Source of the DNA: a virus
Lineage: Duplodnaviria; Caudoviricetes
Direction: 5' to 3' (one strand)
IMG/VR virus record: IMGVR_UViG_3300042346_000589
Location: 1-56,072 of that record
DNA: 56,072 nt
Below the pieces are notes generated by a model. It ran no database searches and was not told the origin of the DNA. It saw only the letters and a list, made by a program, of their open reading frames with translations. Made by a program: the position numbers and the translations under genes. Below are positions 28,314 through 46,574 of the stretch, in pieces (position 1 is the stretch's first letter; each line of letters opens with the position of its first letter).

Positions 28314-28437
28314 ATGTTATAATGAATACACAATTTCATTTCCAGAATGGGTAGAAGATGCGATAGAAGATGTGGCATTTTGTCCATTTTGTGGCGAAGC
28401 ATATATCATAAAAACTTCTGAAACAGAATATGAATAA
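28291..28437 (+). CDS. small zinc-ribbon protein (48 aa, absent from the ORF track)
   Basis: Manual translation MQNYKCLECYNEYTISFPEWVEDAIEDVAFCPFCGEAYIIKTSETEYE; RBS AAGGTG; CxxC...CPFCG. Confidence 0.7.
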   Translation: MQNYKCLECYNEYTISFPEWVEDAIEDVAFCPFCGEAYIIKTSETEYE

Positions 28438-28846
28438 TGATTATGGAAATCCTTGGATTTTTAATGACACTATTTTCTATTCTAGCAGCATTTGTGATTA
28501 TAGTTCCTTTGTCTACATTATTACTAATATTCTTACTAATAGAAAATATATTGGAAAAAAATGTTTCCACTCAATCAGAAAAGTGAAAGGAAAAAGAAAA
28601 AAATGTTTCAGTGATTGGGAAAAATATTATGGATCAAATGATACATTAAAACAAGATGTAAAAGAATTTGGTGCAGACAATTTCAAAAGAGAAATTATAT
28701 ATCTTTGTTCAAATAAAGCTGAAGCAAGTTATCTGGAAGCAAAACTACAATTTGAAAATGATGTTCTACTTTCAGATAACTGGTATAATGGTTGGATAAT
28801 GTGTCGTGTAACAAAAACACATTTGAAATCACTTGTCAAGGATTGA
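28430..28846 (+). CDS. denA: GIY-YIG endonuclease II-like (host DNA degradation)
   Basis: FVYIITN...RKYIGKK, SDW..YYGS, F.REI, YLEAK.QF...VL....YNG. Confidence 0.75.
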   Translation: MNNDYGNPWIFNDTIFYSSSICDYSSFVYIITNILTNRKYIGKKCFHSIRKVKGKRKKCFSDWEKYYGSNDTLKQDVKEFGADNFKREIIYLCSNKAEASYLEAKLQFENDVLLSDNWYNGWIMCRVTKTHLKSLVKD

Positions 28847-33282: not shown

Positions 33283-34767
33283 TTATAAGAAACTGTCAAC
33301 AGTTTTTCTGATTTCCTCCAAAGTAGTCGATTTAACCATTTTACCATCTTCTAAAATTGTTTCCAAGCAACCATGCCTTTCTTGGTCAATTGAAACATTA
33401 TCAACCAACCTGTACTCATTTCCTACCTGTGTGACCATTAGCAGCCCCCTGGCTGACCGTTTGGTTCCATCATCTGTCTTAGGGTCTTTGAACAATGGAA
33501 TGCCCTTGTTGGCGATTTTTGCCCATGTGGATTTGATTGCCATCCCATGGGTGTCCCTTGTTACATAAGAATACTGCATACTCCCCACACCGAACAATAC
33601 ATTATTGGATGCAAATCCCTTTTTCATAAGTTGGGACAAAATTTGATCTTGTCTCGTGGTATTAATTGAGTCACCATAAATGGCACCAATATGTGGATCA
33701 AGCTCCATAAATCCTTTCCCATTAATTCTGCCACCAAATGTATCCCACAAACATTGAATCAATCCTTTGTACTCTGGGGAACCAATTGGGGCGGATTCGT
33801 CGCCACAGATGATTTTAACAGGGTCGCCACTGTCACCTCTGATGACAAGTTTCCCATCCCTTGAAAGAATAATGTCTTTCAAACGTGGGACAGTTTCTGT
33901 CACAACTTTCCAAAAGTCTAAAGTATCTGATACCAAACTAACAATACCACTTGGATATACTTCTGTCAACATTCTTTTGTATGTGAAATATTCATCAACC
34001 GAATCGAAGTTGCCAATACCCGCCGACATCGACGAATGCTCACTCGCATTGACACTGTATGCAATATGGTCTTCATCTGTGGCACCATAATAATCCTCTG
34101 CCAGCATAATAGCTGGAATAGTATCTGTGCCATAACTGCCCATAGCAATGGATGCAAATCCAGAAATTGCTGCAGCATGTCTACCTTGCATACCACGCAT
34201 AGAAAAATCATGGTTCTGAAATGGAACAAAACTATTATCTTCACAAGTTAGTTCAGAATATTTCAAAGAATTTTTTCTGTACCACATATAAGAAGTGGCA
34301 GAAGTAATTGGTAACCATAATTCATCAGAAATTACTGTTTCCAACATATTGGTTACCCAATAAAAATCATCCAAGGTATTTACAATGGTAAACATTGGAA
34401 CACCATATGGCACAAAACTTCCTTCTGGCAAACTTTTGATACGAATTGGTAGATATCCTAGATCATGTAGTTTTTCAATATGTGAAACATCTACATCATA
34501 TCCCAAACCTTTTGAGACAATTCTTTTATACTGTCTAACACATTTCTCCTTTGGTTTGGAGAAAAATGTAGTATTCCATTCTTCAATCAAATAATCCATT
34601 ACAAAAAATTGCATACCAACATACCATACACCTTTTGAATCAGGAATGTTTGCATGTTTGCCGCTTCTAGCGGTCATATTGGAATAAATGGTTTGTGTAT
34701 TGTCTGGATATTGGTGAACGTGACCAACTTTGTAAAAATCTTTTTGTAATGGTGCGAATGTTTTCAT
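33283..34767 (-). CDS. nicotinamide phosphoribosyltransferase-family enzyme (probable Namat of NARP1)
   Basis: DFYK.GH..QYP, HDFS.RG, GTDT, ASEHS.M, SLVSDT.D, VIRGDSGDP, IYGDSI, TRDT.G.A.K, KDPKTD.G.K.SA.G. Confidence 0.9.
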   Translation of the reverse strand: MKTFAPLQKDFYKVGHVHQYPDNTQTIYSNMTARSGKHANIPDSKGVWYVGMQFFVMDYLIEEWNTTFFSKPKEKCVRQYKRIVSKGLGYDVDVSHIEKLHDLGYLPIRIKSLPEGSFVPYGVPMFTIVNTLDDFYWVTNMLETVISDELWLPITSATSYMWYRKNSLKYSELTCEDNSFVPFQNHDFSMRGMQGRHAAAISGFASIAMGSYGTDTIPAIMLAEDYYGATDEDHIAYSVNASEHSSMSAGIGNFDSVDEYFTYKRMLTEVYPSGIVSLVSDTLDFWKVVTETVPRLKDIILSRDGKLVIRGDSGDPVKIICGDESAPIGSPEYKGLIQCLWDTFGGRINGKGFMELDPHIGAIYGDSINTTRQDQILSQLMKKGFASNNVLFGVGSMQYSYVTRDTHGMAIKSTWAKIANKGIPLFKDPKTDDGTKRSARGLLMVTQVGNEYRLVDNVSIDQERHGCLETILEDGKMVKSTTLEEIRKTVDSFL

Positions 34768-34779
34768 AATATAGCCCTA

Positions 34780-35637
34780 TTAAAATAATCTATCAACAAC
34801 GGGTATACAGTTTACTGTACTATTATAATTATCCCTAAATGTATCGGTGGTTATAATATTATCAATACCAGATTCATAAATACATTCCACACCTTTTGAA
34901 TATATACCATGTGTGGTAAACAATGTTACAGTTTTTGCACCAAGTTGTTTTAATTCTTTAGTAATTTCAATAAAACTGCGCCCTCCATCCGTTATATCGT
35001 CTACAATTAGACAATCTTTACCAGTAAGGTCATCTGAAAACACCTTTGTTTTAACAATGTTACCAAATTCGTCCCTGGCTTTATCAACTTGAACAAATTC
35101 ACTTGGCGATAACACTTCGCCCAATTGGTATGATTTTTTACTGGCACCATGATCTGGAATAATTAAAACCTTATTTAACAAAAGATGTGCGACATGTCTA
35201 CTTATTGCAACATAATGCACAATTGTTTTTTGTGTAATAACTTGTAAATTATTGATCAAAGCTGATGCAACATCGCTATGGGCATCATATGTGATCACTT
35301 TGGTGTAATTTTGCGAATTGAGTAAATCTGCAAAAACTTTTAGTGACAATGATTCACCATTTGCAGAAATTTTATCTTGCCGCGCATACGGCAAATATGG
35401 TATTGTGACATAGATGGGAACCAAGGTTCCAAATTTTCGACGCAAGGCATCTGTTACAAATAGTAGTTCCATTACCCCATCACTATTTGTAATCCTTGTA
35501 GTGACCCTAATTTTTGCAGTATCTGCACAATTTAGGTCAGGGATTTGAATATGGACTTCACCACCAGAGAATGTAAAATTGTTTACATTCTCTATGGTAA
35601 TCATTGGTTTATCATTGTATTCAATATAAATTTTCAT
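34780..35637 (-). CDS. ribose-phosphate pyrophosphokinase-family enzyme (probable Adps of NARP1)
   Basis: F.GGE.H, PYLPYARQD, D.HS, PD.GA.K, LIVDDI.DGG.SF, THG..SKG. Confidence 0.9.
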   Translation of the reverse strand: MKIYIEYNDKPMITIENVNNFTFSGGEVHIQIPDLNCADTAKIRVTTRITNSDGVMELLFVTDALRRKFGTLVPIYVTIPYLPYARQDKISANGESLSLKVFADLLNSQNYTKVITYDAHSDVASALINNLQVITQKTIVHYVAISRHVAHLLLNKVLIIPDHGASKKSYQLGEVLSPSEFVQVDKARDEFGNIVKTKVFSDDLTGKDCLIVDDITDGGRSFIEITKELKQLGAKTVTLFTTHGIYSKGVECIYESGIDNIITTDTFRDNYNSTVNCIPVVDRLF

Positions 35638-35742
35638 AATATAGTTCCTAATTATTTGTTATTCACACACACTTTTTTAATGTGTGTTGATATAGCATAT
35701 CACATGATAGTAAAGAATGCAGGTAAACATAAGAGCAATTTG

Positions 35743-35831
35743 TAGGCCAAATTGGATTTGAACCAATACTAAGCCTTGCAAGGGTCTTTCCGTTATGAGC
35801 GGAGGGCATTAACCAGTTATGCTATTGGCCT
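35743..35831 (-). tRNA. tRNA with CAT anticodon (Ile2 or Met), long variable arm, no encoded CCA
   Basis: Acceptor AGGCCAA/TTGGCCT+A; D arm GCAT/ATGC; anticodon TCCG-CTCATAA-CGGA; T arm ATTGG-TTCAAAT-CCAAT. Confidence 0.85.
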
Positions 35832-35853
35832 ACAAATTGCTCTTAATTAATTG

Positions 35854-36024
35854 TTAAACTTCTAAAACATCTATCTCTTCACCAGTTTGTTCATTAATTA
35901 TAGCACGAATTTCACCATTGTCAAGAACAAAATTATTTGAAATATCTGTATATGCTGGATGCAAAGTGTTTTCCAACACTTCTTTTACATATTCAATAAA
36001 ATCTTGTGAAAATCTATGTCTCAT
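35854..36024 (-). CDS. hypothetical protein (56 aa, absent from the ORF track)
   Basis: MRHRFSQDFIEYVKEVLENTLHPAY...IDVLEV; ATGA overlap with the upstream stop. Confidence 0.5.
   Translation of the reverse strand: MRHRFSQDFIEYVKEVLENTLHPAYTDISNNFVLDNGEIRAIINEQTGEEIDVLEV
35897..35924 (-). promoter_or_regulatory. consensus sigma70 (early) promoter upstream of the tRNA and NAD genes
   Basis: TTGACA-N16-TATAAT with extended -10 TGc. Confidence 0.75.
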
Positions 36025-36323
36025 ACACTTAACCCCGCATCTTCCAATAATTCTTTATATTCATCAATAGCCAATGCTGCCATATCTTTTAAATCTGATT
36101 CCATTTTTTCCCTAGCTCGTACCAAAATGGTTTCCATTTCTGTGCCCAAGATTTTATTAATTTCATATAATAAAAATTCTGGCACATCTTCTTTCGCTGT
36201 GATACCAGTCCTAAAAGATATCTTTTCAATTGGTATAAGATTTTCACCATTTCTTGTCATGGTCATAAATTGATTAAATTTTTCAATCTTTTCTTTCTGC
36301 CTAGAATATTGTGCAATGTGCAT
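36021..36323 (-). CDS. hypothetical protein
   Basis: 100-aa ORF, translationally coupled to its neighbours. Confidence 0.6.
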   Translation of the reverse strand: MHIAQYSRQKEKIEKFNQFMTMTRNGENLIPIEKISFRTGITAKEDVPEFLLYEINKILGTEMETILVRAREKMESDLKDMAALAIDEYKELLEDAGLSV

Positions 36324-37408
36324 TATATCTCCAAATATTGTTCTGTAACAACTCTATCTTGACCCTGCCTTGGTTTACCAACATCACCTGGATCATATGC
36401 ACTGATCAAAAATAGATGTTTCCTGGTATCATTTGTGGCATATTTATCTGCCCGATGTTGCATTAATACTGTTTGTTTATGTTCTTTATCAAACACCATG
36501 AATGTACCATGTTTGGGAGTATACTCCCCACTCTTGATTTTGTCAACCACCTTTCGATGGATTTTTAACAAATTCTCTTTTGGCACATGTCGTTCTATCT
36601 GTCGTTGATCAATATGGTTCGTGGGAAACAATTTCACCCCACGATGAATACTTATGTGGCCGCTTTCTAATAATGTTTCCGATATTCCAGATGTACCACT
36701 TCTACTATAGTTACCATTATTGGAAATTGCCGATTTTAAATTATTTTTGTGTAATATACCATATGTTTCATATTTCGCAGAACCAGTCCCGAAAACAGTA
36801 TCCCCCTCGTGGGAATGTATTGCATCATATCCTGCAAATTTGATTGCATTGTGTAAATGATGCGAATTATTATGAAAATGCCATACTGGTGCCATATGGT
36901 CTCCATACTCGGCCTTTCCCTTGTCTAGATGAGATATTGCCCCTTTTGCAGATTTTTCATCCAATTTTCCATCACGGTAATCATCAAGTAATCTACTTTT
37001 TACTCGTGATGCTACATCAGAAAACTTAACGTGCGTGTGTTGAGATTTAAATCCCAAGTGTATTGGGTTTTCTACCTTTGCATATAGTTTCATTACATTT
37101 GGCGATTCAGATGCATTAGATTTATCCCCACTAGCATAATCATTTGCATATGCTTTATGTGGGGTAACAAATGTTACTCGTGATCCGTGTGTATCAGAAT
37201 GTTCAGTATTCATTCCCCGATACATCACAGTTGGTCTGCCGCTAGAATCAACAGCCCTGGAGTTACCAAACCATTTATAAAAACTTCTTATTCCCGCCTC
37301 AGTTGGATGTATAAGATTGCCCTCGCTGTTATGCCGTGGGCGTTTAGTACCATCAATATCTATTGTATCGCTTGTTATTGACTCAAATAGTTGTTTAAAT
37401 GTTTTCAT
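36323..37408 (-). CDS. candidate internal head protein with polyvalent-protein ART-like domain
   Basis: MKTFKQLFE N-terminus; F.KWFG.S..VD..G.P.VMYRG, F......YA..YA, NVM.LY....NP, GYD.I, KSA..N.G.Y. Confidence 0.6.
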   Translation of the reverse strand: MKTFKQLFESITSDTIDIDGTKRPRHNSEGNLIHPTEAGIRSFYKWFGNSRAVDSSGRPTVMYRGMNTEHSDTHGSRVTFVTPHKAYANDYASGDKSNASESPNVMKLYAKVENPIHLGFKSQHTHVKFSDVASRVKSRLLDDYRDGKLDEKSAKGAISHLDKGKAEYGDHMAPVWHFHNNSHHLHNAIKFAGYDAIHSHEGDTVFGTGSAKYETYGILHKNNLKSAISNNGNYSRSGTSGISETLLESGHISIHRGVKLFPTNHIDQRQIERHVPKENLLKIHRKVVDKIKSGEYTPKHGTFMVFDKEHKQTVLMQHRADKYATNDTRKHLFLISAYDPGDVGKPRQGQDRVVTEQYLEI

Positions 37409-38145
37409 TGAAGACCTAATTTTAATTTTGTTAAAATATACTGTTTAACAAACCCTGACCTAACCACATCATCTACAGTAAATTCAACATTTGTGAAAAC
37501 TGGCATTTCCTTTACAATTTTCATAAATTCATTAAATCCACTTTGTTCATGTTTTTTCAAATCGCTTTGAACTAAATCTCCACTAAAAATTATCCTAGAA
37601 TCTTCGCCAACTCTGGTAGCAACCATATCCAATTCTTTGAAAGTGTTCTGTTGCATTTCATCGCAAATTATAACAGAATTGTTAAAGGTGATGCCTCGCA
37701 TAAAAGATGTAGTCATAAACTGAATAACACCTTGATCAACTAATTGTTGGTATGCATTTTCAATGTTTGGAAATAATTCATTGCATATTGAAATATATGG
37801 AACAACGTATTCAAACTCTTTTTCCTCTCTTGTTCCTTTTGTGAATCCTAATTCACGAGTTTGAACAGCAGATTTGATAATGATTACTTTGTGATATGGT
37901 GTTCCTTTTGTAAACACATCTTTTAATGCAAGATATAGGGACAACAGCGTTTTGCCGGTTCCGGCGCAACCATGTAATACTAAGTTTTGATCTTGTGAAT
38001 ATTCTTGGAATGCAAAGGTTTGATTTTCCGTTAACGGAACAACTGTTTTTAAATGTTCCAATCTTATTTTCGTTTTTGAAGAAGAACTTTTTGGTACAAT
38101 GCTTGGGATTTCTTCCATGGTTGTTGCACTGCGTCTTTTTCTCAT
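37405..38145 (-). CDS. phoH: PhoH family ATPase
   Basis: PLT.NQ, G.AGTGKT, LGF..G...EK, FMRG.TF, DEMQ, TRVGE.S...F.GD..QSD, DVVRSG.V. Confidence 0.93.
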   Translation of the reverse strand: MRKRRSATTMEEIPSIVPKSSSSKTKIRLEHLKTVVPLTENQTFAFQEYSQDQNLVLHGCAGTGKTLLSLYLALKDVFTKGTPYHKVIIIKSAVQTRELGFTKGTREEKEFEYVVPYISICNELFPNIENAYQQLVDQGVIQFMTTSFMRGITFNNSVIICDEMQQNTFKELDMVATRVGEDSRIIFSGDLVQSDLKKHEQSGFNEFMKIVKEMPVFTNVEFTVDDVVRSGFVKQYILTKLKLGLQ

Positions 38146-38192: not shown

Positions 38193-38420
38193 TTATTTTT
38201 TATCTGGTAACCATTTACTCAATTTTGAAAGATTATTTGACAAACACCACCATGTTTTAAAATGTGAATCCCATCTGGCACCAAATTTCTTTGCTTCCTC
38301 TTTTTCACTGTAGGGTACATCTAGGTATACCACCTTTATTCTATTATTGAATTGTTCTTCTCTAATACTTTTTAGACCTAAATCTCTTTTGTTTAATTTT
38401 TCATGGTCAAATTTTGACAT
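38193..38420 (-). CDS. small protein with DUF5710-like motif
   Basis: YLDVPYSEKEEAKKFGARWD....WW. Confidence 0.7.
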   Translation of the reverse strand: MSKFDHEKLNKRDLGLKSIREEQFNNRIKVVYLDVPYSEKEEAKKFGARWDSHFKTWWCLSNNLSKLSKWLPDKK

Positions 38421-38463
38421 AATATTTTTCCAAAATTTAAATATTGTAATTTACATGTAACAA

Positions 38464-38760
38464 ACATCGAAGATGTGCGAAGCACTGATTGTAATATATT
38501 TGTGTATTGTTACAAATATGGTATTTTTGTAAAATGATTTATTCTACACTATTTTAACCAACCAAACCAAATGTAACAATAAAAACCAAAATCACAAAGT
38601 GCTTCGCACCCGCAAAGCGGGTTTGTAATTATTGTTGGTTTCCATTTGGAGGTATTTATCAAATAGGTAACCAATTGCTCCCAATGTTCCCAAATTGCCC
38701 CAAATGTTTCAAATTTTTGACAAAACTTCCCCTTCCGAAAAGAAGAAGTTTTTAAAAAAA
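38464..38760. other. non-coding mini-hairpin / short-repeat cluster (origin candidate)
   Basis: ACATC-GAA-GATGT; GTGC-GAA-GCAC and its inverted copy at 38599-38609; ACCCGC-AAA-GCGGGT; CCAAT/CCAAAT short repeats. Confidence 0.4.
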
Positions 38761-39120
38761 TCAATGTTACAGCACTACTGAGGCGGTTGTCCTGTACCTC
38801 TCGCTGCGTATTCCCAATCAATAGATTTTACTCAATTAATTGACAACGGTACATCAATACACATACATTGACATATGCACTGATGCTCCGGGGTGGTTCT
38901 CTTTTACTTTCCAGATGCCCGGTTCTTTACCCCTTCAAAATAATTCTACATTAGCAAAGACATTTACGCTTCAACCTCTCGGTTGCATGGGGGCGTTGCC
39001 TATCATCCTTTCGGGTAGTTGCTAAGGTCGTCGTTGTTGCCCGACTAGGTGTTCCTCTCGTTCAATTGCGAAGGTTTTACCGCTGGTAACAATCCCCCCA
39101 GCTAGGTTAATCAACAATGT
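38761..39120 (-). ncRNA. candidate ~360-nt structured RNA
   Basis: GC-rich, no credible ORF, many helices incl. GNRA-capped CC-GAAA-GG and CAACC-GAGA-GGTTG; cATAAATA directly upstream at 39127-39134. Confidence 0.6.
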
Positions 39121-39196
39121 GTAATCTATTTATGCCTAACTATACTATATAGGCAAAAATTTTATTTACAAGGTATATCAACAAATAAAATTTTTC

Positions 39197-39226
39197 TTGA
39201 CAGGAACCTGTCCAAAATGGTACAGT
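39197..39226 (+). promoter_or_regulatory. possible sigma70 promoter for the HNH gene
   Basis: TTGACA-N18-TACAGT. Confidence 0.4.
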
Positions 39227-39265
39227 ATTTTAACCAATAAATAGATTTATTTATACATTGAAATT

Positions 39266-39994
39266 ATGAAGAGATGTACAGTTTGTAAAATAGAAAAGAA
39301 TTTGGATGATTTTCATCCGCATCCGAGATATAAATACGGAGTTAGGGCACAATGTAAAGAATGCCGGTCGCAACTAGGTAAAGAATATTATGAAGCAAAT
39401 AAGGAAGAATGTTTAAGTAGATGTGCAGATTATAGACAAAATAATAAAGAAAAAAGAAAACAAACATGTGATAACTATAGAAATAATAATAAACACAAAG
39501 CTAGAGAATATTATTTGCATATACGAACAACAAAGAAGTATAAAGATTACGTAAAAAAATATAGAGAAAAAAACAAGGCAATAATACAAAACATGTCAAG
39601 GCATAGGGAAAAAGTTTTGTATGACACAAACCCATTATATAGAATTAAAAAACTAATTAGATGGCATATTAGACAATCTATAAAATTATTTACTGGTGAG
39701 AAATTGACAACATCTTCATCCGTTCTTGGGTGTACATACGCAGAATTTATAATATATATAGATAACAAATTCACGGATGGAATGTCTTGGGATAATAGAC
39801 ACGAATGGCACCTAGATCACATAGTTCCTATATCTTTTGCTAAAGATGTAGACGAAGTTCTTAAATTAAATCATTATACTAATTTTAGACCTCTATGGGC
39901 TAAAGATAATTTATCAAAGGGTAATACCATTACTACCGAATCATTAAACCATCCATTATTTATTGAGATAATGGAGAATAGGATAAAAACATGA
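39266..39994 (+). CDS. HNH endonuclease with N-terminal zinc finger
   Basis: CTVC...CKEC; GMSWDN..EWHLDHIVP, NHYTN.RPLW..DN..KG. Confidence 0.85.
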   Translation: MKRCTVCKIEKNLDDFHPHPRYKYGVRAQCKECRSQLGKEYYEANKEECLSRCADYRQNNKEKRKQTCDNYRNNNKHKAREYYLHIRTTKKYKDYVKKYREKNKAIIQNMSRHREKVLYDTNPLYRIKKLIRWHIRQSIKLFTGEKLTTSSSVLGCTYAEFIIYIDNKFTDGMSWDNRHEWHLDHIVPISFAKDVDEVLKLNHYTNFRPLWAKDNLSKGNTITTESLNHPLFIEIMENRIKT

Positions 39995-40955: not shown

Positions 40956-41384
40956 ATGGATACATTTGAGCATGGTGAATTTTTGCCCATACAGGTTGAG
41001 GATACCTCAACAGAGTTGGCCGAAATTGGATCAATAAGTGACATAGAAGAAGACTATCAAAAAACCCGCACCAATATTTATGATTTGTTGGAAAAGGGCA
41101 AGGAAGGGCTTGAGGTGGCTTTATCCATGGTTTCTGCAACAGAATCCCCAAGAAGTATCGAAGTTTTTTCAACTTTGCTCCGAACATTGGCAGATACCAA
41201 TCTACAACTGCTGGAAATCCAGAAAAAACACCATGATATGAGTGTTGCCACAAAAGTTATTCAACAAGAAAATGCCACAAATATAAATAACCAAACTATT
41301 AACCAAACTGTTTTTGCCGGAACTACTTCAGATTTGGCAAAATTACTTGCTACAATGAAGGAAAAAGACTATGAGCCAAAGTGA
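40956..41384 (+). CDS. gp16: terminase small subunit gp16
   Basis: DY...R.N.Y.L.EKG.E.L......A.ESPR..EV...L...AD...LL..QK, F.G.T.DL.K.L. Confidence 0.88.
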   Translation: MDTFEHGEFLPIQVEDTSTELAEIGSISDIEEDYQKTRTNIYDLLEKGKEGLEVALSMVSATESPRSIEVFSTLLRTLADTNLQLLEIQKKHHDMSVATKVIQQENATNINNQTINQTVFAGTTSDLAKLLATMKEKDYEPK

Positions 41385-42015
41385 ACTAGATAAATGTGCA
41401 AAAGATTTTAACTATTTTTTCGATAATTACGTTAAAATATCTACAAATGGATTAGTTGAAAATATTGAAAAAATAACTCCATTCCAAAAAATCATTATTT
41501 CGGCAACCGAAACATCTGATAAAAATATTATTGAAAAATATACCAGGGGAAGTGGCGCAACATTTGTATCTGTAGCAAAATTTCTACATATGGCTATGTT
41601 TAATGTCAATAAAACATATATCATTTTTACGACAAAATTGGATGCATTGGCCAATATCCAACATACAATAAAATTGATCCATGATCGATTCCCAAATTGG
41701 TTGAAAACTATTGCAATAGAAAATGCAAATAGAGATCATTACAAATTCTCAACCAATTCTGTAATCAAATTTTCTTTATATAAAGAGTCTGCTCTAATAT
41801 TCTGTAGAAAGATTGATTACATATATATGGATGAACCAGCCATGGCAACAGGATTTAATAAAGATTTTTGGGTAGCTTTACAAAATCTTGCAAATCAAAC
41901 CAAATGTGGGCAATTAATTGTATCAACTGAACCAACAACTGTTTCATTGTGGGACAAATTATGTAAACATGCTGTAACAAATAAAATAGATTTTACATAT
42001 TCTTGGGAACAATAA
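41371..42015 (+). CDS. truncated terminase-large-subunit ATPase paralog with degenerate Walker A
   Basis: KC.KD..YF..NYVKI, PFQ, RGSGAT in place of RQxGKT, P.WL, YIYMDE Walker B, IVST motif III; no nuclease domain. Confidence 0.65.
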   Translation: MSQSELDKCAKDFNYFFDNYVKISTNGLVENIEKITPFQKIIISATETSDKNIIEKYTRGSGATFVSVAKFLHMAMFNVNKTYIIFTTKLDALANIQHTIKLIHDRFPNWLKTIAIENANRDHYKFSTNSVIKFSLYKESALIFCRKIDYIYMDEPAMATGFNKDFWVALQNLANQTKCGQLIVSTEPTTVSLWDKLCKHAVTNKIDFTYSWEQ

Positions 42016-42041
42016 TTAAATATAACATATAGGAGTAATAT

Positions 42042-42527
42042 ATGAATAAAACGTTTAAACAATTTATTAATAAACTATATGAAGGTGTTCACCCCTATAT
42101 AGAAACCCATATTAAACAAAAATTATCCAACAATGATTTAGAACCATCAGAATTGCATCATTTAGCCAATCACCATGACAGATTGGTTAGAATTGAAGTA
42201 GCAAAACACAGAAATGTTGATCAAACTACTTTAAACAAATTACATGATGATTCAGACCATTCTGTACAATTGGCCGTTGCATCAAATCCAAAGACACATG
42301 CAAATGACTTACACAATTTGTCTATGTCAACATCATCTTATACAAAAGCCGCTGTGGCAGCAAATCCAAATACTGCATCCAGTACATTACATAATTTGTC
42401 AAAAGATTCCAATGTATTTGTTAGGGACGCAATTGCATCAAATAAAAATACTACAACAACTACCAGAAATTCAATGAAGTCTTCTTCGCATAATGATGAC
42501 ACAATTGACAGGAAATTGGCAAAATAA
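42042..42527 (+). CDS. LRV/HEAT-like repeat protein, candidate internal head protein
   Basis: RBS AGGAG; MNKTFKQFI...YE; four ~24-aa repeats L..L..D....VR.AVA.NP.T. Confidence 0.7.
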   Translation: MNKTFKQFINKLYEGVHPYIETHIKQKLSNNDLEPSELHHLANHHDRLVRIEVAKHRNVDQTTLNKLHDDSDHSVQLAVASNPKTHANDLHNLSMSTSSYTKAAVAANPNTASSTLHNLSKDSNVFVRDAIASNKNTTTTTRNSMKSSSHNDDTIDRKLAK

Positions 42528-42988
42528 TGGCATCAAAAATCAAATATTACAGAAATAATCCACTTTTAAAAGGTGTTGGTGTACAACTTGATTACACCGC
42601 TGACCAAATTGAAGAATATTTGAAATGCAAAGATGACCCAATCTATTTTATCAAAAACTACGTTAAAATCGTACATGTGGATAAAGGTTTGGTCAATTTT
42701 GAGTTATATGATTATCAAGAAGAATTTGTTAATTTATTAAATGATAACACCAAAGTTGTTGCCGCAATGGGAAGACAATTGGGTAAGTGTTTTTTGTATG
42801 TTACTGATATTACTATAAAAAATCCATCATATAATAAAGGATTGCCATTAAAAATAAAAGTTGGCGACTTTTATTTGTGGATGAAACACTGCAACACCAT
42901 GACAGATTGGAAATCGTTTTGTGATAAATACTTATGTATCCAAAACAACCCAACTATACAAAATGATAACATTACAACAAGCAATTGA
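42527..42988 (+). CDS. gp17: terminase large subunit gp17 N-terminal fragment (aa 1-87) fused to split-intein N part
   Basis: Y..NPLLK, EY.KC..DP.YF..NY.KI, Y.YQ, GRQLGK then Cys88 (CFLYVTDITIK). Confidence 0.9.
   Translation: MASKIKYYRNNPLLKGVGVQLDYTADQIEEYLKCKDDPIYFIKNYVKIVHVDKGLVNFELYDYQEEFVNLLNDNTKVVAAMGRQLGKCFLYVTDITIKNPSYNKGLPLKIKVGDFYLWMKHCNTMTDWKSFCDKYLCIQNNPTIQNDNITTSN
42788..42988 (+). mobile_element. split intein N-fragment (IntN, 66 aa)
   Basis: Block A-like CF...T.I.I...KIKVGDFY starting right after the Walker A Lys. Confidence 0.8.
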
Positions 42989-43895
42989 AGATTACTCTAC
43001 TGGCAACTATATAGAATCAAGAGGAACAAAGGCAAAACGGAAGAAAAATGAACAAATATTTGCTGACAAAGAAGAAGGAAAAGATTATTTGGTGTGCAAA
43101 ATATGTGGAATGAAAACTGGAGAATTGACTGGGCATTTATTATACTCCCACAAGATTGACCATAATGAATATAAAAAGGAATTTGGTTTAGAACAACTCA
43201 AATGCCTGACTTTAATAGAAAAAGTAGCAGGAGAAAACAATCCTGGATATAATCACGGAGGAAGATTGTCACCTTTTTCTAAAAAGTTTATAAAGGGTGA
43301 TATATCTGAACAAACAGTAAAAAAATCAATAGATACCAGAACAGCTAATAACAACAATCCAACAACAATAGAATATTGGATGAAAAAAACCAATGGGGAT
43401 GAAGAGCTGGCCAAAGAGTTATTATCAACTAGACAATCGACGTTTTCTCTTGACAAATGTATAGAAAAATTCGGCGAAATTGATGGATTAAAGAGATGGC
43501 AGGATAGACAAAATAAATGGCACACAAATTATAAAAAATCTAATTTTTCAAAAATTTCTCAGGAATTGTTTTGGAGTATATACGATGAATATGATAACAA
43601 TGATTGTGTTTATTTTGCAGAAAATCATAGAATAGATGGAAGAAAAAATTCAGAGTATATTTTAACTTTGGATGTTAATGTTATAAAGCCAGATTTTATA
43701 GATATTGATCGCAAAAAAATAATAGAATTTGATGGCACATATTGGCATGAAGTTCAACAAAACCCTAGAAGAGAATTTGAGAGAGATGCGCAAATTATTG
43801 CTGCTGGATATGATGTAATGCATGTAAAAGAATCTGATTACATGAATAATAAACAAAATGTTGTACAAGATTGTATAAAATTTTTATGCTCCTAA
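42921..43895 (+). CDS. free-standing endonuclease (zinc finger + Vsr/PD-(D/E)XK-like C-terminus), putative homing endonuclease
   Basis: CKICG...HL..H; GENNP; SKISQELF, PDF.D...K.IIEFDG.YWH, RD......GY....V.E; probable ATG at 42963. Confidence 0.75.
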   Translation: MINTYVSKTTQLYKMITLQQAIEDYSTGNYIESRGTKAKRKKNEQIFADKEEGKDYLVCKICGMKTGELTGHLLYSHKIDHNEYKKEFGLEQLKCLTLIEKVAGENNPGYNHGGRLSPFSKKFIKGDISEQTVKKSIDTRTANNNNPTTIEYWMKKTNGDEELAKELLSTRQSTFSLDKCIEKFGEIDGLKRWQDRQNKWHTNYKKSNFSKISQELFWSIYDEYDNNDCVYFAENHRIDGRKNSEYILTLDVNVIKPDFIDIDRKKIIEFDGTYWHEVQQNPRREFERDAQIIAAGYDVMHVKESDYMNNKQNVVQDCIKFLCS

Positions 43896-43900
43896 AGATG

Positions 43901-43929
43901 TTGACAACCACTATTAGTTGTTATATAAT
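43901..43929 (+). promoter_or_regulatory. perfect-consensus sigma70 promoter
   Basis: TTGACA-N17-TATAAT immediately upstream of the GIY-YIG gene. Confidence 0.75.
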
Positions 43930-43957
43930 AAACAATTTATAATTGGAGATAAGTGAA

Positions 43958-44848
43958 ATGAAATATGGTTATGTATATCTAACAACAAATACTATTAATG
44001 GTATGAGGTATATTGGTCAGCATCGCAGTAACAAATTAGACTTAAACTATATTGGTTCTGGATCAGCATTGAAATTGGCAATCAGAGAATATGGCAAGGA
44101 AGCTTTTACATGTGAAATCATAGAATGGTGCGACTCACAACAATCTTTGGATGATAGGGAAATATTTTGGTTGTTGGATACTAATGCGGCGATGTCACCA
44201 GAGTTCTATAATAGGACTGATAGAACTTCTTATACATTTAGAGGTAAAGATTATTATCCAATAATAGATATAGAAAAACCAATATTGAAAACAATGGATT
44301 GTTTGATTTTTGATGAGCATTTTTATAGTATGAATCATATTAGAACCAAATATGTATTTACCAATAAACAAATTAAATATAAATTAGGCGATCCAAATGA
44401 AAAAGATTGGATACCATTAACTGACAAAATAATCAAACAATCTATTGAACAGTATAACAAAATAACTAAATATAGAGAAGAATCTGTCACAAGATTTAGA
44501 GAGATTCAAAAAAAGCATGTGTATGATATAAATAGAAATCCAGAAAAAATTGCAAAAACTGCGGCCAAGCATACTGGAATGAAAAGAAGTGATGCAGCAA
44601 AGAAGAATATGTCTGAATCATCATGGATTAGGAAAAATGGAGCAAGGAATAAAGGAACAAAAATATATCATAATATAGAGTTAAAGATTCTTAAAGAATT
44701 TAGAGAAACAGATGTAATTCCATGTGGATGGAATATTGGCACAGGCAGAAAAATATATTATAACCCAGTTACAGGAAAAAATAAACAGTTGTTCCCATGG
44801 GAAGTAACAGAAGGGTTAATACAAGGTAGGCATGTCAAACGCGAATAA
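43958..44848 (+). CDS. Seg-like GIY-YIG homing endonuclease
   Basis: RBS GGAG before MKYGYVY (ATG 43958); GYVY.TTN..NG..YIGQH, Y.GSG, YGKE.F, E..W, FYN; NUMOD3-like G.KRS...K.NMS. Confidence 0.85.
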   Translation: MKYGYVYLTTNTINGMRYIGQHRSNKLDLNYIGSGSALKLAIREYGKEAFTCEIIEWCDSQQSLDDREIFWLLDTNAAMSPEFYNRTDRTSYTFRGKDYYPIIDIEKPILKTMDCLIFDEHFYSMNHIRTKYVFTNKQIKYKLGDPNEKDWIPLTDKIIKQSIEQYNKITKYREESVTRFREIQKKHVYDINRNPEKIAKTAAKHTGMKRSDAAKKNMSESSWIRKNGARNKGTKIYHNIELKILKEFRETDVIPCGWNIGTGRKIYYNPVTGKNKQLFPWEVTEGLIQGRHVKRE

Positions 44849-45194
44849 AAAATTTATCGATGAAATATCTTTGCCCCAAGGATGGGAAATCCTTTCCGAT
44901 GATGGGTGGCAACCAATTTCAACCATATATAAAACAATTCCATATCAAGTTTGGAGAATGGAATTGCAAAATGGGTTGTATCTGGATTGTGCAGATACTC
45001 ATATAATATTTGACGAATATTTGAATGAAATCTATGTAAAAGATGTTGTACCATTTGTTACCAAAATTTCGACCGAATTCGGTCCCAGATTGGTCACAAA
45101 ATTGGAAACATTTGATGTTACAGAAAATATGTATGATATTTCGGTGGAATCTCCCACCCATAGATTTTATTCTAATGGTATATTATCTCATAAT
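44832..45194 (+). mobile_element. split intein C-fragment (IntC, 121 aa)
   Basis: ILS.DGW, block B CADTH, block F MYDISV, block G FYSNGILSHN, followed by Thr. Confidence 0.88.
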
Positions 45195-46574
45195 ACCACA
45201 ACAGTTTCTGCATATTTCCTATGGTATTCAATATTTAATCCAGATAAAACCTGTGCAATTCTTGCCAATAAAAGGGTTACAGCATTTGAAATTTTGGACA
45301 AAGTTCAAAAAGCATATACACATTTACCAATATGGTTACAAAGTGGTGTTGTAGAATTTAATAAATCCAGGATGGTGTTAGAAAATGGATCAAGAATAAT
45401 AGCAGAGGCAACATCTTCTGCTGCAATTCGTGGATTTTCAATAAATATGCTGCTACTTGATGAATTTTCGTTTGTTCCATCAGCAATGGCGAATGAATTT
45501 TTTACTGCTGTATTTCCAACTATATCATCTGGTAAAGATACTAGAGTATATATGGTTTCAACACCATTAGGGTTAAATCATTTTTATAAATTTTACAATG
45601 ATGCTGTTTTAGGTTTAAATGGATTTGCTCACATTCATATAAAATGGGATAGGCATCCAGATCGTGACGCGAAATGGGAAGAAAATCAGCGAAAAATTCT
45701 GGGAGATTTAAAATTTTCCCAAGAGATGGAAGCAGATTTTCAAGGGTCGTCAAATACATTATTAAACTCCACTTGTATTAAAAATTTGGTCTATAAGACC
45801 CCAGTATTAATAAATGATTGTTTAAAAATATATCAACCACCGATTGAGGGAAATTTGTATGTAATGACTGTTGACGTATCTCGTGGACAAAGTTTGGACT
45901 ATTCTGCTTTCAAAATATTTGATATAACGGATAGTCCCTATAGAGTTGTAGCAAATTATAATTCAAACGAGATTCCACCAATATTATATCCAAATGTTAT
46001 TCATAAGGTAGCAAAGGATTATAACGAATGTTATGTATTGATAGAATTGAATGATATAGGTTCCCAAGTTATAGATATTTTGCATACAGATTTGGAATAT
46101 GAAAATGTATTATATTCTACAGATGGTATGATAACAGAATGGGGAAAAATGGGTAAAGCTGGGTTAAGGACTACTCAAAGATCAAAACGAATTGGATGCA
46201 GTGCATTGAAATCATTGATGGAAAATCATAAATTGATTGATAATGATTTTGATACAATTGTACAATTATCCACATTTATTGCAACAAAAACATCATTTGA
46301 GGCAGATTCTGGTTGCCATGATGATTTGGTCATGTGTTTAGTATTATTTGCATATTTAAGCACACAACAATTCTTCAAGGATGTAACAAATGTAAATATT
46401 AGGAATATGATTTATGAAAACCAAATGACCAGAATTGAAAATGAGTTGACCCCATATGGTTATATTGATAATGGTATAGACACCATAGAACCAGATTTGG
46501 ATATAGTTGGTAAAGAAGTTTGGATACCAGCAAACCAATCTTATTCAGATTTTATAAAAGACTATTGGAATTAA
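44832..46574 (+). CDS. gp17: split-intein C part (121 aa) fused to the remainder of terminase large subunit gp17
   Basis: ILSHN|TTTVSAY; ILANK, LP.WLQ, ENGS, AIRG, LLLDEF.F, STP.G.NHFY, F.QE, VDVSRG...DYS, HDDLVM. Confidence 0.92.
   Translation: MSNANKKFIDEISLPQGWEILSDDGWQPISTIYKTIPYQVWRMELQNGLYLDCADTHIIFDEYLNEIYVKDVVPFVTKISTEFGPRLVTKLETFDVTENMYDISVESPTHRFYSNGILSHNTTTVSAYFLWYSIFNPDKTCAILANKRVTAFEILDKVQKAYTHLPIWLQSGVVEFNKSRMVLENGSRIIAEATSSAAIRGFSINMLLLDEFSFVPSAMANEFFTAVFPTISSGKDTRVYMVSTPLGLNHFYKFYNDAVLGLNGFAHIHIKWDRHPDRDAKWEENQRKILGDLKFSQEMEADFQGSSNTLLNSTCIKNLVYKTPVLINDCLKIYQPPIEGNLYVMTVDVSRGQSLDYSAFKIFDITDSPYRVVANYNSNEIPPILYPNVIHKVAKDYNECYVLIELNDIGSQVIDILHTDLEYENVLYSTDGMITEWGKMGKAGLRTTQRSKRIGCSALKSLMENHKLIDNDFDTIVQLSTFIATKTSFEADSGCHDDLVMCLVLFAYLSTQQFFKDVTNVNIRNMIYENQMTRIENELTPYGYIDNGIDTIEPDLDIVGKEVWIPANQSYSDFIKDYWN

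What the first reader, a model, noticed from the sequence alone, without database searches (positions are those of the whole stretch)
38761..39134. Unannotated ~360-nt GC-rich structured RNA candidate with a probable pseudoknot behind a late-promoter motif
Seen: a markedly GC-rich, ORF-free stretch. Paired segments: GCTGG/CCAGC (39082-86, 39098-102); TTAGCAA/TTGCTAA (38951-57, 39019-25) enclosing GNRA hairpins CC-GAAA-GG (39007-14) and CAACC-GAGA-GGTTG (38972-85); CCGGG/CCCGG (38888-92, 38918-22); GAGG/CCTC (38780-800). The loops read GNRA only on the minus strand. GTACC-GTTGTC (38842-52) can pair with GGTAC and GACAAC (38786-98) in non-nested order, i.e. a pseudoknot. cATAAATA lies just upstream and a U-run just downstream. 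It does not match tRNA, tmRNA or RNase P hallmarks that I can recognise. Inference: a novel phage ncRNA, possibly a ribozyme-like RNA, a replication primer or a partner of the adjacent HNH protein.
Basis: partly seen in the sequence, partly recalled or inferred. Interest (0 to 1): 0.8.

Follow-up and report, generated by a model that had tools for sequence, protein, structure and literature searches.

The report
Large pseudoknotted phage RNA, partly known
This stretch of a T4-like lake phage encodes a real, intricately folded RNA of about 360 bases whose first third matches a catalogued RNA motif of unknown function, while the rest, with two further pseudoknots, is not in the RNA catalogue.

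Summary
The minus strand at 39117-38761 encodes a structured RNA. The RNA is not fully novel. Its 5' domain is a divergent copy of the Rfam motif Polynucleobacter-1 (RF01718): the window scores 21.6 bits against a threshold of 37, while 13 of 13 homologous loci score 43.8-121 bits. The 3' domain of about 190 nt matches no Rfam family above threshold. A model of it built without the window hits the window at 45.8 bits, E about 1e-10. It shares a core with cow-rumen-2 (RF02947). On 104 sequences with mean identity of about 64%, 77 proposed pairs including four pseudoknots are 89% paired, against 35-43% for slid controls, and 64 of 77 show changes on both sides. More than 100 distinct copies lie in uncultured viral contigs, usually just after a small GIY-YIG gene. 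In the window the RNA stands alone, behind a late-promoter-like motif. The gene downstream differs from locus to locus, which argues against a cis-regulatory role. Function is unknown. My best guess is a trans-acting, compactly folded RNA that binds a partner or catalyses a reaction.

The parts
38761..39117 (-). Core of the structured RNA (357 nt), from the 5' strand of pseudoknot PK0 to the 3' strand of PK2
   Evidence: End-to-end alignment with homologs. Covariation on 104 sequences. Window helices read from the ruler.
39127..39134 (-). CATAAATA, resembling a T4-type late promoter, about 10 nt upstream of the first paired base
   Evidence: Sequence. ATAAATA is not enriched in the window: 32 copies against 42.6 expected. 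About 8 copies sit 25-52 nt upstream of ORF starts on the same strand. The motif is absent upstream of the RNA in the other 103 loci. The consensus TATAAATA is from general knowledge.
38951..39117 (-). 5' domain, a divergent form of Polynucleobacter-1 (RF01718)
   Evidence: Window 39107-38983 scores 21.6 bits, E 0.028, against a threshold of 37. 13 of 13 homologs score 43.8-121.3 bits.
39034..39117 (-). PK0: leader TTGTTG (39117-39112) pairs with CAACAA (39039-39034) in the P3 loop
   Evidence: 6 of 6 pairs in the window. In the family, columns 37/166 read GC44/AU30 and columns 35/171 read AU30/GC21/GU11/UA9.
39082..39106 (-). P1 hairpin (39102-39098 with 39086-39082) plus PKa (CCT 39106-39104 with GGG 39097-39095 in the P1 loop)
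   Evidence: P1 columns 57-59/77-79 are 95.1% paired and all covary. PKa columns 51/62 read GC72/AU25/CG2.
39054..39074 (-). P2 hairpin: CCT-TCG (39074-39069) with CGA-g-AGG (39060-39054); bulged G at 39057
   Evidence: Same layout as in homologs, with a bulge on the 3' strand. Family helices 7-9 are 80-91% paired and covary.
39030..39045 (-). P3 hairpin: GTCG (39045-39042) with CGAC (39033-39030); its loop carries the 3' strand of PK0
   Evidence: Family helix 10 is 91.5% paired.
38951..39025 (-). Three-way junction. P4: 39025-39019 with 38957-38951. P5: CC-GAAA-GG, 39014-39007. P6: 39001-38997 with 38962-38958, extended in the window by ACGC/GCGT (38996-93 with 38969-66) and the hairpin CAACC-GAGA-GGTTG (38985-38972).
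   Evidence: P4 is 94.2% paired, 4 of 6 pairs changing on both sides. P6 is 96.1% paired. The extension appears only in the window row of the 104-sequence alignment.
38761..38950 (-). 3' domain with two pseudoknots; not covered by any Rfam family above threshold
   Evidence: Model R1, built from 75 homologs without the window, hits 38877-38751 (-) at 45.8 bits, E 1.4e-10. An Rfam E-value scan lists no family over the core of this domain; the only hits touching it (mir-186, RAGATH-32) lie at its 3' edge and are far below threshold.
38888..38922 (-). H1: CCGGG (38922-38918) with CCCGG (38892-38888), with a larger loop than in homologs
   Evidence: The family stem varies in length. The MAFFT alignment is poor here, at 61% paired. 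The covarying stem sequences are visible.
38851..38886 (-). H2: 14-bp hairpin (38886-38873 with 38864-38851) whose loop carries the 5' strand of PK2
   Evidence: Family helices 16-17 are 86.5% and 93.6% paired, and all 12 pairs change on both sides.
38761..38871 (-). PK2: TCAATGT (38871-38865, H2 loop) pairs with ACATTGA (38767-38761, 3' tail)
   Evidence: 7 of 7 pairs in the window. The family helix is 96.9% paired and all 7 pairs change on both sides.
38786..38847 (-). PK1: GTTGTC (38847-38842) pairs with GACAAC (38791-38786, Hp loop)
Evidence: 99.4% paired, with 3 of 5 pairs changing on both sides.
38815..38842 (-). Insertion hairpin (38842-38835 with 38822-38815), seen only in the window among the aligned sequences
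   Evidence: It forms a gap block in all but a few rows of the alignment.
38770..38806 (-). S stem (CAGC 38806-38803 with GCTG 38773-38770) enclosing the Hp hairpin (GAGG 38800-38797 with CCTC 38783-38780; 13-nt loop)
   Evidence: S is 97.4% paired and 4 of 4 pairs change on both sides. Hp is invariant, but my search pattern fixed those letters.
38729..38760 (-). Probable 3' end: U7 (38760-38754), then a terminator-like hairpin (38748-38729) followed by a U-rich tail
   Evidence: Terminator scan and sequence. The end itself is not shown experimentally.

Best explanation
The locus is a free-standing RNA gene on the minus strand. The core runs 39117-38761. The transcript probably runs from about 39120 to 38754 or about 38725.

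It encodes a divergent, full-length member of a large family of phage RNAs of about 340 nt. This is shown. The 5' domain is the Rfam motif Polynucleobacter-1. It consists of three hairpins, a three-way junction and two pseudoknots. The 3' domain is not modelled in Rfam. Two hairpins and a short stem are locked together there by two further pseudoknots around an invariant GAGG-loop-CCTC hairpin. Its core is shared with the cow-rumen-2 motif.

The following is inferred. The RNA is transcribed late from its own CATAAATA-type promoter. It folds into one compact body held by four pseudoknots. It acts in trans during infection as a specific binding or catalytic RNA, that is, a protein- or ligand-binding scaffold or a ribozyme. 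It does not act as a leader controlling the next gene.

My odds: it is a real structured RNA of this family, about 0.95. It acts in trans rather than in cis, about 0.65. The biochemical activity is unknown.
For: Homology:
- Patterns taken from the window retrieved 8 true homologs through the 5' motif.
These give 113 distinct cores, counting the window and the earlier loci.
- The homologs align with the window from end to end.
- 13 of 13 tested loci pass the RF01718 threshold.
- Model R1, built without the window, hits it at 45.8 bits, E about 1.4e-10.

Structure:
- 77 pairs are 89.0% paired, against 34.8-42.9% when slid by 1-3 columns.
- 64 of 77 pairs change on both sides.
- The covariation score is 0.440, against 0.052-0.091 slid and 0.182 shuffled (0 of 500 shuffles reach it).
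- By hand count, all pairs of the P, H, S, Hp and PK helices listed under parts (103 in all) form in the window, some with compensating letters. For example PKa reads CCU/GGG where most homologs read GGCU/GGCU.

Against cis regulation: of 115 loci, the next ORF is on the same strand in 58, on the opposite strand in 44, and absent in 13. It belongs to at least 10 unrelated clusters.

Independence from neighbours:
- The window has no upstream gene on this strand.
- It has a CATAAATA motif and a terminator-like hairpin.
- L237 has a tRNA upstream rather than a GIY-YIG gene.
- L136 has a sigma-70-like promoter.

The RNA region is present in contigs of two metatranscriptome runs from one sample and one study. 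This is consistent with transcription but does not prove it.
Against: - No experiment or read-level data shows the transcript, its ends or its strand. The RNA-library contigs may derive from DNA, and one extends upstream of the presumed start.
- The window scores below the Rfam threshold. It also lacks two elements that are well conserved in the family: the junction CAGGGAYGGAA, and the 3' tail motif CTYRGATRA, which is present in 93 of 115 loci.
- In 90 of the 104 loci that have an upstream ORF, the RNA directly follows a GIY-YIG gene and has no late-promoter motif of its own. In most members it may therefore be a 3'-UTR element or a processed product.
- In the window, same-strand genes (DUF5710, PhoH) lie about 300 nt downstream, so a leader role cannot be excluded there.
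- ATAAATA is not enriched in the window.
- The family was collected with patterns taken from the window. The structure was derived from the same sequences it was then counted on. Both inflate the apparent conservation and favour the structure in the slid control.
Confidence: 0.6

Rival explanations
1. It is a cis-regulatory leader or riboswitch. The fold senses a ligand or protein and controls read-through of the terminator-like hairpin (38748-38729) into the downstream DUF5710-PhoH-ADP-ribosyltransferase genes.
For: The 2010 paper that defined Polynucleobacter-1 rated it 'y' (probably) for cis-regulatory and '?' for riboswitch (Table 1, passages seen). In the window, same-strand genes follow about 300 nt downstream. 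A terminator-like hairpin lies in between.
Against: The downstream ORF is on the opposite strand in 44 of the 102 loci that have one, and it falls in at least 10 unrelated clusters. In most loci the RNA lies at the 3' end of a gene. At about 340 nt with four pseudoknots, it is much larger than typical aptamers.
Confidence: 0.12
2. It is a partner RNA or 3'-UTR element of the small SegE-like GIY-YIG protein. It would form an RNA-protein complex, or control or stabilise that gene's mRNA.
For: A GIY-YIG ORF (PF19835, 1e-32) lies directly upstream on the same strand in 90 of the 104 loci that have an upstream ORF. Its stop codon usually lies 4-26 nt before P1, and the ORF sometimes runs into the 5' strand of PK0 (33 of 90 pass it, 7 end inside it).
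Against: The window's own GIY-YIG homolog (28430-28846, 49.6% identical; phrog_447) lies 10 kb away and is followed by a convergent gene with no RNA. L237 has a tRNA upstream instead. The protein occurs in 344 cultured-phage records. The two checked whole, Melnitz-3 and ACP17, have no RF01718 match (0 of 2). Adjacency may simply reflect shared gene order in one clade (gp47-gp46-x-GIY-YIG).
Confidence: 0.1
3. It is a self-processing ribozyme or a remnant of an intron-like mobile element that travels with homing endonuclease genes.
For: Endonuclease genes lie next to it: an HNH/EndoVII-like gene in the window (phrog_1035) and GIY-YIG genes elsewhere. The density of pseudoknots and invariant junction bases is typical of catalytic RNAs.
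Against: No group I or group II intron family appears even at E up to 10. There are no flanking exon halves. The small GIY-YIG protein is a widely conserved phage gene rather than a sporadic homing gene.
Confidence: 0.08
4. It is an origin-associated primer RNA. The folded transcript would form a persistent RNA-DNA hybrid that starts replication, as structured pre-primer RNAs do in some plasmids.
For: The locus sits at a point of divergent transcription and at the cumulative GC-skew minimum of the scanned 6-kb stretch. Homologs lie beside recombination and replication genes (gp46/gp47). Cow-rumen-2 copies lie near UvsY-like genes in 5 loci.
Against: The strand switch of the genes explains the skew change by itself. 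No repeats or unwinding element were examined. The genomic position differs between the window and the other loci. Conservation follows RNA pairing rather than DNA sequence.
Confidence: 0.05

Closest known systems
Polynucleobacter-1 RNA motif (Rfam RF01718; Weinberg et al. 2010, PMC2864571)
   Same: The window's 5' domain has the same order of elements: P1 hairpin with an 11-nt loop, P2, P3, and a three-way junction with the conserved ACTAYCC...GGAYGA box. Homologs that align with the window from end to end pass the family threshold (13 of 13; L005 at 43.8 bits). The habitat also matches: lake water against 'fresh water/estuary' in the paper's table.
   Different: The window itself scores 21.6 bits, below the threshold of 37. 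It lacks the conserved CAGGGAYGGAA junction and has an enlarged P6. The Rfam model has 141 positions and no pseudoknots. The RNA described here is about 340-360 nt, with a 3' domain and four pseudoknots that the model does not contain. The paper rated the motif as probably cis-regulatory, which my gene-context counts do not support.
cow-rumen-2 RNA motif (Rfam RF02947)
   Same: The two share a core: a hairpin with a YUAGC loop, then GCCGCC, then a stem enclosing a hairpin whose loop reads UACMGGAUGACC, then GUAA (alignment, sequences). There are weak hits in both directions. RF02947 on homolog L087 gives 19.9 bits, E 0.25. My 3'-domain model on genuine cow-rumen-2 RNAs gives at best 22.6 bits, E 7e-4. 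Both occur in large T4-like viral contigs.
   Different: Nothing reaches the family threshold of 66 bits. Cow-rumen-2 has a long outer stem of about 13 bp where this RNA has the 4-bp S stem. It shows no evident counterpart of PK2 and no Polynucleobacter-1 domain in front. It can occur in 2-3 copies per contig. Homology is likely but not proven.
Large 'ornate' phage-borne RNAs of unknown function (GOLLD, ROOL)
   Same: The same kind of object: a large, highly structured RNA with many conserved bases. It is carried by phages, is sometimes near tRNA genes (L237; a tRNA lies about 3 kb away in the window), and has no known function. That GOLLD and ROOL are phage-borne and lie near tRNAs is recalled. 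That they form RNA-only assemblies was seen only in an abstract in the listing.
   Different: No sequence or model similarity: no Rfam hit. This RNA is smaller, about 350 nt against roughly 600-800 nt (recalled). Oligomerisation was not tested here.
HEARO / omega RNA of IscB (an RNA associated with an HNH nuclease)
   Same: Only the theme: a structured RNA next to a nuclease gene.
   Different: There is no Rfam match. The HNH gene in the window is divergent, is 242 aa with EndoVII-like matches only, and is not a conserved neighbour. The GIY-YIG neighbour also occurs without the RNA.

Membership tests
Polynucleobacter-1 (RF01718) | Score at or above Rfam's gathering threshold (37 bits) | tested here: not met
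   The window scores 21.6 bits, E 0.028, in a 1.1-kb E-value scan. There is no hit in gathering mode.
Polynucleobacter-1 (RF01718) | Helices of the model in the right order: P1, P2, P3, closing stem, 2-bp hairpin, P6 | tested here: met
   All six form in the window at 39102-38951 (read). They align with the homologs' helices and covary in the family.
Polynucleobacter-1 (RF01718) | Conserved single-stranded boxes: CAGGGAYGGAA and ACUAYCC...GGAYGA | tested here: inconclusive
   The second box is present (39018-39003). The first is not recognisable in the window or in L005.
Polynucleobacter-1 (RF01718) | Homology through intermediates that do pass the threshold | tested here: met
   L005 (43.8 bits) and 12 others (69-121 bits) pass and align with the window over both domains. 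The 3'-domain model built without the window hits it at E about 1.4e-10.
cow-rumen-2 (RF02947) | Score at or above the gathering threshold (66 bits) | tested here: not met
   RF02947 is not among the window's matches at E up to 10. Homolog L087 scores 19.9 bits. Genuine members score 90-110 bits.
cow-rumen-2 (RF02947) | Shared core: UAGC-loop hairpin, GCCGCC, UACMGGNNGACC loop, GUAA | tested here: inconclusive
   The core is visible. Model hits in both directions are only marginal (E 0.25; E 7e-4).
Riboswitch or cis-regulatory leader | Consistent position in the 5' UTR of a recurring gene or pathway | tested here: not met
   The next ORF is on the same strand in 58 loci, on the opposite strand in 44 and absent in 13 of 115, and it falls in at least 10 unrelated clusters.
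Group I / group II introns | Match to an intron model, and flanking exon halves of one gene | tested here: not met
   No intron family appears at E up to 10 in 38300-39400. No split gene flanks the RNA.
tRNA / tmRNA / RNase P / 6S / SRP RNA | Match to the family model | tested here: not met
   ARAGORN finds only the tRNA at 35742-35831. Rfam lists none of these families at the locus.
Self-cleaving ribozymes | Site-specific cleavage activity | not testable with these tools
   No known ribozyme family matched. Activity needs a bench assay.

The most novel reading that the evidence does not exclude
The Polynucleobacter-1 motif and the 3' domain described here, together with the related cow-rumen-2 module, form one previously unrecognised class of large phage RNA locked by four pseudoknots. 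On this reading the class has a biochemical activity of its own, for example a new ribozyme, or an RNA that captures a host or phage factor, or an RNA that self-assembles as ROOL and GOLLD do. It would be carried by many uncultured T4-like and jumbo phages of lakes and rumen.
Probability: 0.3. Interest if true: 0.85.

Novelty: new variant of a known kind. Interest (0 to 1): 0.6.

Why it matters
The motif has sat in Rfam since 2010 as a 141-nt candidate, rated as probably cis-regulatory. On this evidence it is the front part of a much larger RNA with four covariation-supported pseudoknots. The RNA occurs in more than 100 distinct viral contigs, some of 230-345 kb. Its gene context argues against a leader role.

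RNAs of this size and this density of tertiary contacts have often turned out to be catalysts or cores of RNA-protein machines. HEARO and OLE are precedents, recalled rather than checked here. The family is therefore a good candidate for structural and biochemical study.

The link between two orphan Rfam families, RF01718 and RF02947, would simplify the catalogue. The practical outcome is a full-length model that would annotate these loci in phage metagenomes. Rfam's gathering threshold misses the window's copy altogether.

Tried and rejected
- Folding the single sequence gives z -1.52, with 6 of 100 shuffles folding as well. It is not significant alone and I did not use it as support.
- blastn of the window's region and of a canonical homolog against 50,697 cultured phage records found no match. 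I therefore know of no cultured carrier. blastn at this sensitivity could miss divergent copies.
- Looking for relatives through the PhoH neighbour found none. An exact 20-mer from the window had 0 matches.
118 are chance matches in GC-rich DNA, 1 is a clear member (L237, a 4.4-kb contig binned with a Methylococcaceae MAG), and 1 is possible (L255; 22.4 bits, E 4e-4). This gives no evidence of a cellular home.
- Lead recalled from memory: the 3' domain might mimic the L11-binding centre of 23S rRNA. I tested a profile of the 3' domain against three real 23S rRNA loci. The best E was 1.1, and that hit does not lie in the L11-binding region. Rejected.
- I looked for pairing partners of the conserved 3' tail motif. 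No canonical covarying column was found.
- An RNA-guided GIY-YIG nuclease was considered. It is weakened; see the rival explanations.
- Metatranscriptome contigs of runs X11 and X19 (one sample, one study) cover the RNA. They cannot show strand, ends or level. The uncovered stretch 38727-38753 in X11 and the adapter-like loose end at 39095 in X19 are not evidence of anything.
- ATAAATA is not enriched in the window, so the promoter reading rests on position alone.
Supplements of papers are closed. Three sets could bear on novelty and context and were not seen: the additional files of PMC2864571 (motif alignment and flanking genes), those of the 2017 motif paper that named cow-rumen-2 (that paper is recalled, not seen), and the tables of PMC10690425, which lists 8,495 viral RNA candidates of 29-151 nt and could include part of the 3' domain.
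- That the extended RNA is not in print rests on the searches and 89 of the held library only.
Full report
**Setting.** The window is an IMG/VR virus record of 56,072 bases, estimated 33% complete. It is T4-like. It carries a T4-type small terminase and large-terminase pieces, NAD salvage genes, PhoH and an ART-PolyVal protein. Near-identical DNA is found in lake-water and freshwater metagenome runs from 16 studies. The finding lies in an 850-nt gap between two blocks of genes. Genes on the minus strand end with a DUF5710 protein (38193-38420) and PhoH (37405-38145). Genes on the plus strand begin with a 242-aa HNH/EndoVII-like protein at 39266-39994.

**Check of the observation.** GC rises to 0.39-0.475 between 38600 and 39099, against 0.245-0.33 to the left and 0.25 to the right. 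Only two TTG-start ORFs of 90 and 61 aa overlap the stretch, and neither matches a PHROG family. The CATAAATA (39134-39127) and the run of seven U (38760-38754) are there. ARAGORN finds no tRNA or tmRNA at the locus. Rfam's gathering thresholds give nothing there. The minus strand folds to -101.9 kcal/mol, but 6 of 100 shuffles fold as well. The plus strand is no better than its shuffles. The single sequence therefore proves nothing, and the case rests on relatives.

**Finding relatives.** An E-value scan of 38300-39400 gave a weak hit to Polynucleobacter-1 (RF01718): 21.6 bits against a threshold of 37, E 0.028, at 39107-38983 on the minus strand. A degenerate pattern from the box shared by the window and the Rfam consensus found 25 viral loci. 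Of these, 8 (5 distinct sequences) are plainly homologous over hundreds of bases, and 17 are chance matches. Their alignment with the window showed that similarity continues about 200 nt beyond the 3' end of the Rfam model.

Together with the window and the earlier loci these give 113 distinct cores. Three loci (L032, L037, L054) share only the motif.

All 13 loci that I passed to Rfam hit RF01718 above threshold in their 5' part, at 43.8-121.3 bits. All 8 loci found through the 5' box also carry the 3' motif. The two parts therefore belong to one RNA.

A covariance model of the 3' part (R1: 128 positions, 75 sequences, window excluded) hits the window at 38877-38751 on the minus strand with 45.8 bits and a rough E of 1.4e-10. 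The window's RNA is thus a divergent but full-length member.

**Structure.** I aligned 104 distinct sequences with MAFFT. Mean pairwise identity was 64% in an earlier alignment of 102 sequences. I derived helices from a mutual-information scan and from one reference sequence. The count was then made on that alignment.
- 77 pairs in 21 helix segments are 89.0% paired, against 34.8-42.9% when the 3' partners are slid by 1-3 columns.
- 64 of 77 pairs show changes on both sides.
- The covariation score is 0.440, against 0.052-0.091 slid and 0.182 shuffled. None of 500 shuffles reaches it.

Caveats:
- The structure came from these same sequences, which favours it in the slid control.
- The Hp stem is invariant because my search pattern fixed it.
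- MAFFT misaligns H1 and parts of the 5' domain in outliers, including the window's row.

The fold has a 5' domain and a 3' domain.
- **5' domain.** P1, P2 and P3 are followed by a three-way junction of P4, P5 and P6. There are two pseudoknots. PK0 pairs the leader with the P3 loop. PKa pairs the bases just 5' of P1 with the P1 loop.
- **3' domain.** H1 and H2 are followed by a short stem S that encloses the hairpin Hp. There are two more pseudoknots. PK1 pairs the bases after H2 with the Hp loop. It is 99.4% paired, and 3 of 5 pairs change on both sides. PK2 pairs the H2 loop with the 3' tail. It is 96.9% paired, and all 7 pairs change on both sides.

In the window every one of these helices forms, as listed under parts. 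Some use compensating letters. The window also has three peculiarities: an enlarged P6 ending in a GAGA hairpin, a larger H1 loop, and a 28-nt hairpin inserted after PK1.

GTTGTC/GACAAC is PK1. The GTAC/GGTAC pairing has no counterpart in the homologs.

**Context and what it says about function.** In the other loci the gene order is SbcD-like (gp47), SbcC-like (gp46), a small ORF, a small SegE-like GIY-YIG protein, then the RNA. The GIY-YIG ORF is the nearest upstream ORF in 90 of the 104 loci that have one. Its stop codon usually lies 4-26 nt before P1.

The region downstream is variable. The next ORF is on the same strand in 58 loci, on the opposite strand in 44 and absent in 13 of 115, and it falls in at least 10 unrelated clusters. 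That speaks against the 'probably cis-regulatory' rating in the 2010 table.

The GIY-YIG link is not obligatory.
- The window's homolog of that protein (28430-28846; 49.6% identical) lies 10 kb away with no RNA behind it.
- L237 has a tRNA upstream instead.
- The protein is found in 344 cultured-phage records.
- The two genomes I searched whole, Melnitz-3 and ACP17, lack RF01718, whereas 3 of 3 viral contigs searched the same way have exactly one copy.

Only the window has a late-promoter-like motif in front of the RNA (1 of 104 loci). The motif is not enriched in the window overall (32 copies against 42.6 expected). About 8 copies lie 25-52 nt before ORF starts on the same strand. A sigma-70-like site also lies at 39171-39144.

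A conserved tail motif, CTYRGATRA, follows PK2 in 93 of 115 loci and occurs elsewhere only at chance level. It has no detectable pairing partner and is absent from the window.

Contigs of two metatranscriptome runs from one sample cover the RNA. That is compatible with expression and nothing more.

**Relation to cow-rumen-2.** Scanning the 3' domain of a canonical member against Rfam gave cow-rumen-2 (RF02947) as the best, sub-threshold hit at 19.9 bits, E 0.25. The aligned parts were the UAGC-loop hairpin, GCCGCC, the loop ACAGGAUGACC and GUAA. Of 13 loci tested, 11 are genuine RF02947 at 90-110 bits, and one (L350) is a Polynucleobacter-1-type variant. My 3'-domain model hits genuine cow-rumen-2 RNAs only weakly, at best 22.6 bits, E 7e-4. 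I read this as probable shared ancestry of a core module. It is not membership.

**Explanation and its limits.**
- Shown: this is a real RNA of a large phage family, with four pseudoknots. It is partly catalogued, and in the window it is free-standing.
- Inferred: it is transcribed late and acts in trans as a compact binding or catalytic RNA.
- Rivals: a leader or riboswitch, a partner or 3'-UTR element of the GIY-YIG gene, a ribozyme or intron remnant, and an origin primer. None is excluded, and each is given odds above.
- A recalled resemblance to the L11-binding region of 23S rRNA failed a direct test.

**Novelty.** The held literature mentions Polynucleobacter-1 and cow-rumen-2 only in tables. 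A 2023 survey of viral RNA candidates discarded regions that overlap Rfam families and reported elements of 29-151 nt (passages). Its supplementary lists, which I could not open, might contain part of the 3' domain. On what I could see, three things are new: the full-length architecture, the four pseudoknots and the link between the two Rfam families. The window's copy is a new, divergent, stand-alone variant of a known but uncharacterised kind.

Noticed in passing
window 41371-46574: The large terminase appears split. A 214-aa ORF with the N-terminal domain (41371-42015) and a 580-aa ORF with N- and C-terminal domains (44832-46574) are separated by about 2.8 kb. That gap holds unrelated ORFs and a full-length GIY-YIG homing-endonuclease-like gene (43943-44848; phrog_314, 2.4e-25). 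It could be a duplication, an insertion or an intron/intein-like arrangement.
   Followed up: partly
window 38475-38622: About 150-290 nt downstream of the RNA lie inverted copies of an 11-base GC-rich palindrome-like box, near 38476-38486 and 38590-38600. They can form a hairpin of about 135 nt, which gives only weak miRNA-like Rfam hits. A terminator-like hairpin readable on both strands lies at 38601-38622. Similar short GC hairpins follow the RNA in homologs.
   Followed up: no
window 35742-35831 (-): A tRNA with anticodon CAT is 90 nt long because of a 17-nt insertion in the variable region. This is unusual for a Met/Ile2-type tRNA.
   Followed up: no
window 33283-37408 (-): A cluster of NAD-related genes lies on the same strand as the RNA and downstream of it: nicotinamide phosphoribosyltransferase (33283-34767), a ribose-phosphate pyrophosphokinase-like gene (34780-35637) and an ADP-ribosyltransferase of the ART-PolyVal type (36323-37408, below the Pfam cut-off), next to PhoH.
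   Followed up: no
loci L027-L145, about 40-60 nt after the Hp motif: A conserved tail motif, CTYRGATRA, follows the RNA in 93 of 115 loci. It occurs elsewhere at chance level (67 copies in 1.05 Mb, both strands) and has no detectable pairing partner. It is absent from the window.
   Followed up: partly
L284, L312, L347 (one 411-kb contig); L292, L299 (424 kb); L298, L339 (230 kb): Cow-rumen-2 RNAs occur in 2-3 copies in very large viral contigs. Their neighbours include RegA-like, UvsY-like and DHH-phosphoesterase genes.
   Followed up: partly
L326 4366-4722 (-): A viral contig of 136 kb carries a full tmRNA gene (RF00023, 133.5 bits), about 3 kb from a cow-rumen-2 RNA.
   Followed up: no
L255 2947-3088 (+): A 23-kb contig of 67% GC, binned with a Kiloniellaceae MAG, has a possible copy of the 3' domain alone. 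It scores 22.4 bits, E 4e-4, and PK1 and the S stem can be formed. There is no RF01718 hit.
   Followed up: partly
window 28430-28846 (+) and 344 cultured-phage records: The small domain-only GIY-YIG protein (phrog_447) is labelled 'NAD synthetase' in many phage records. It matches the SegE GIY-YIG nuclease domain (PF19835), so the label looks like a propagated misannotation.
   Followed up: partly
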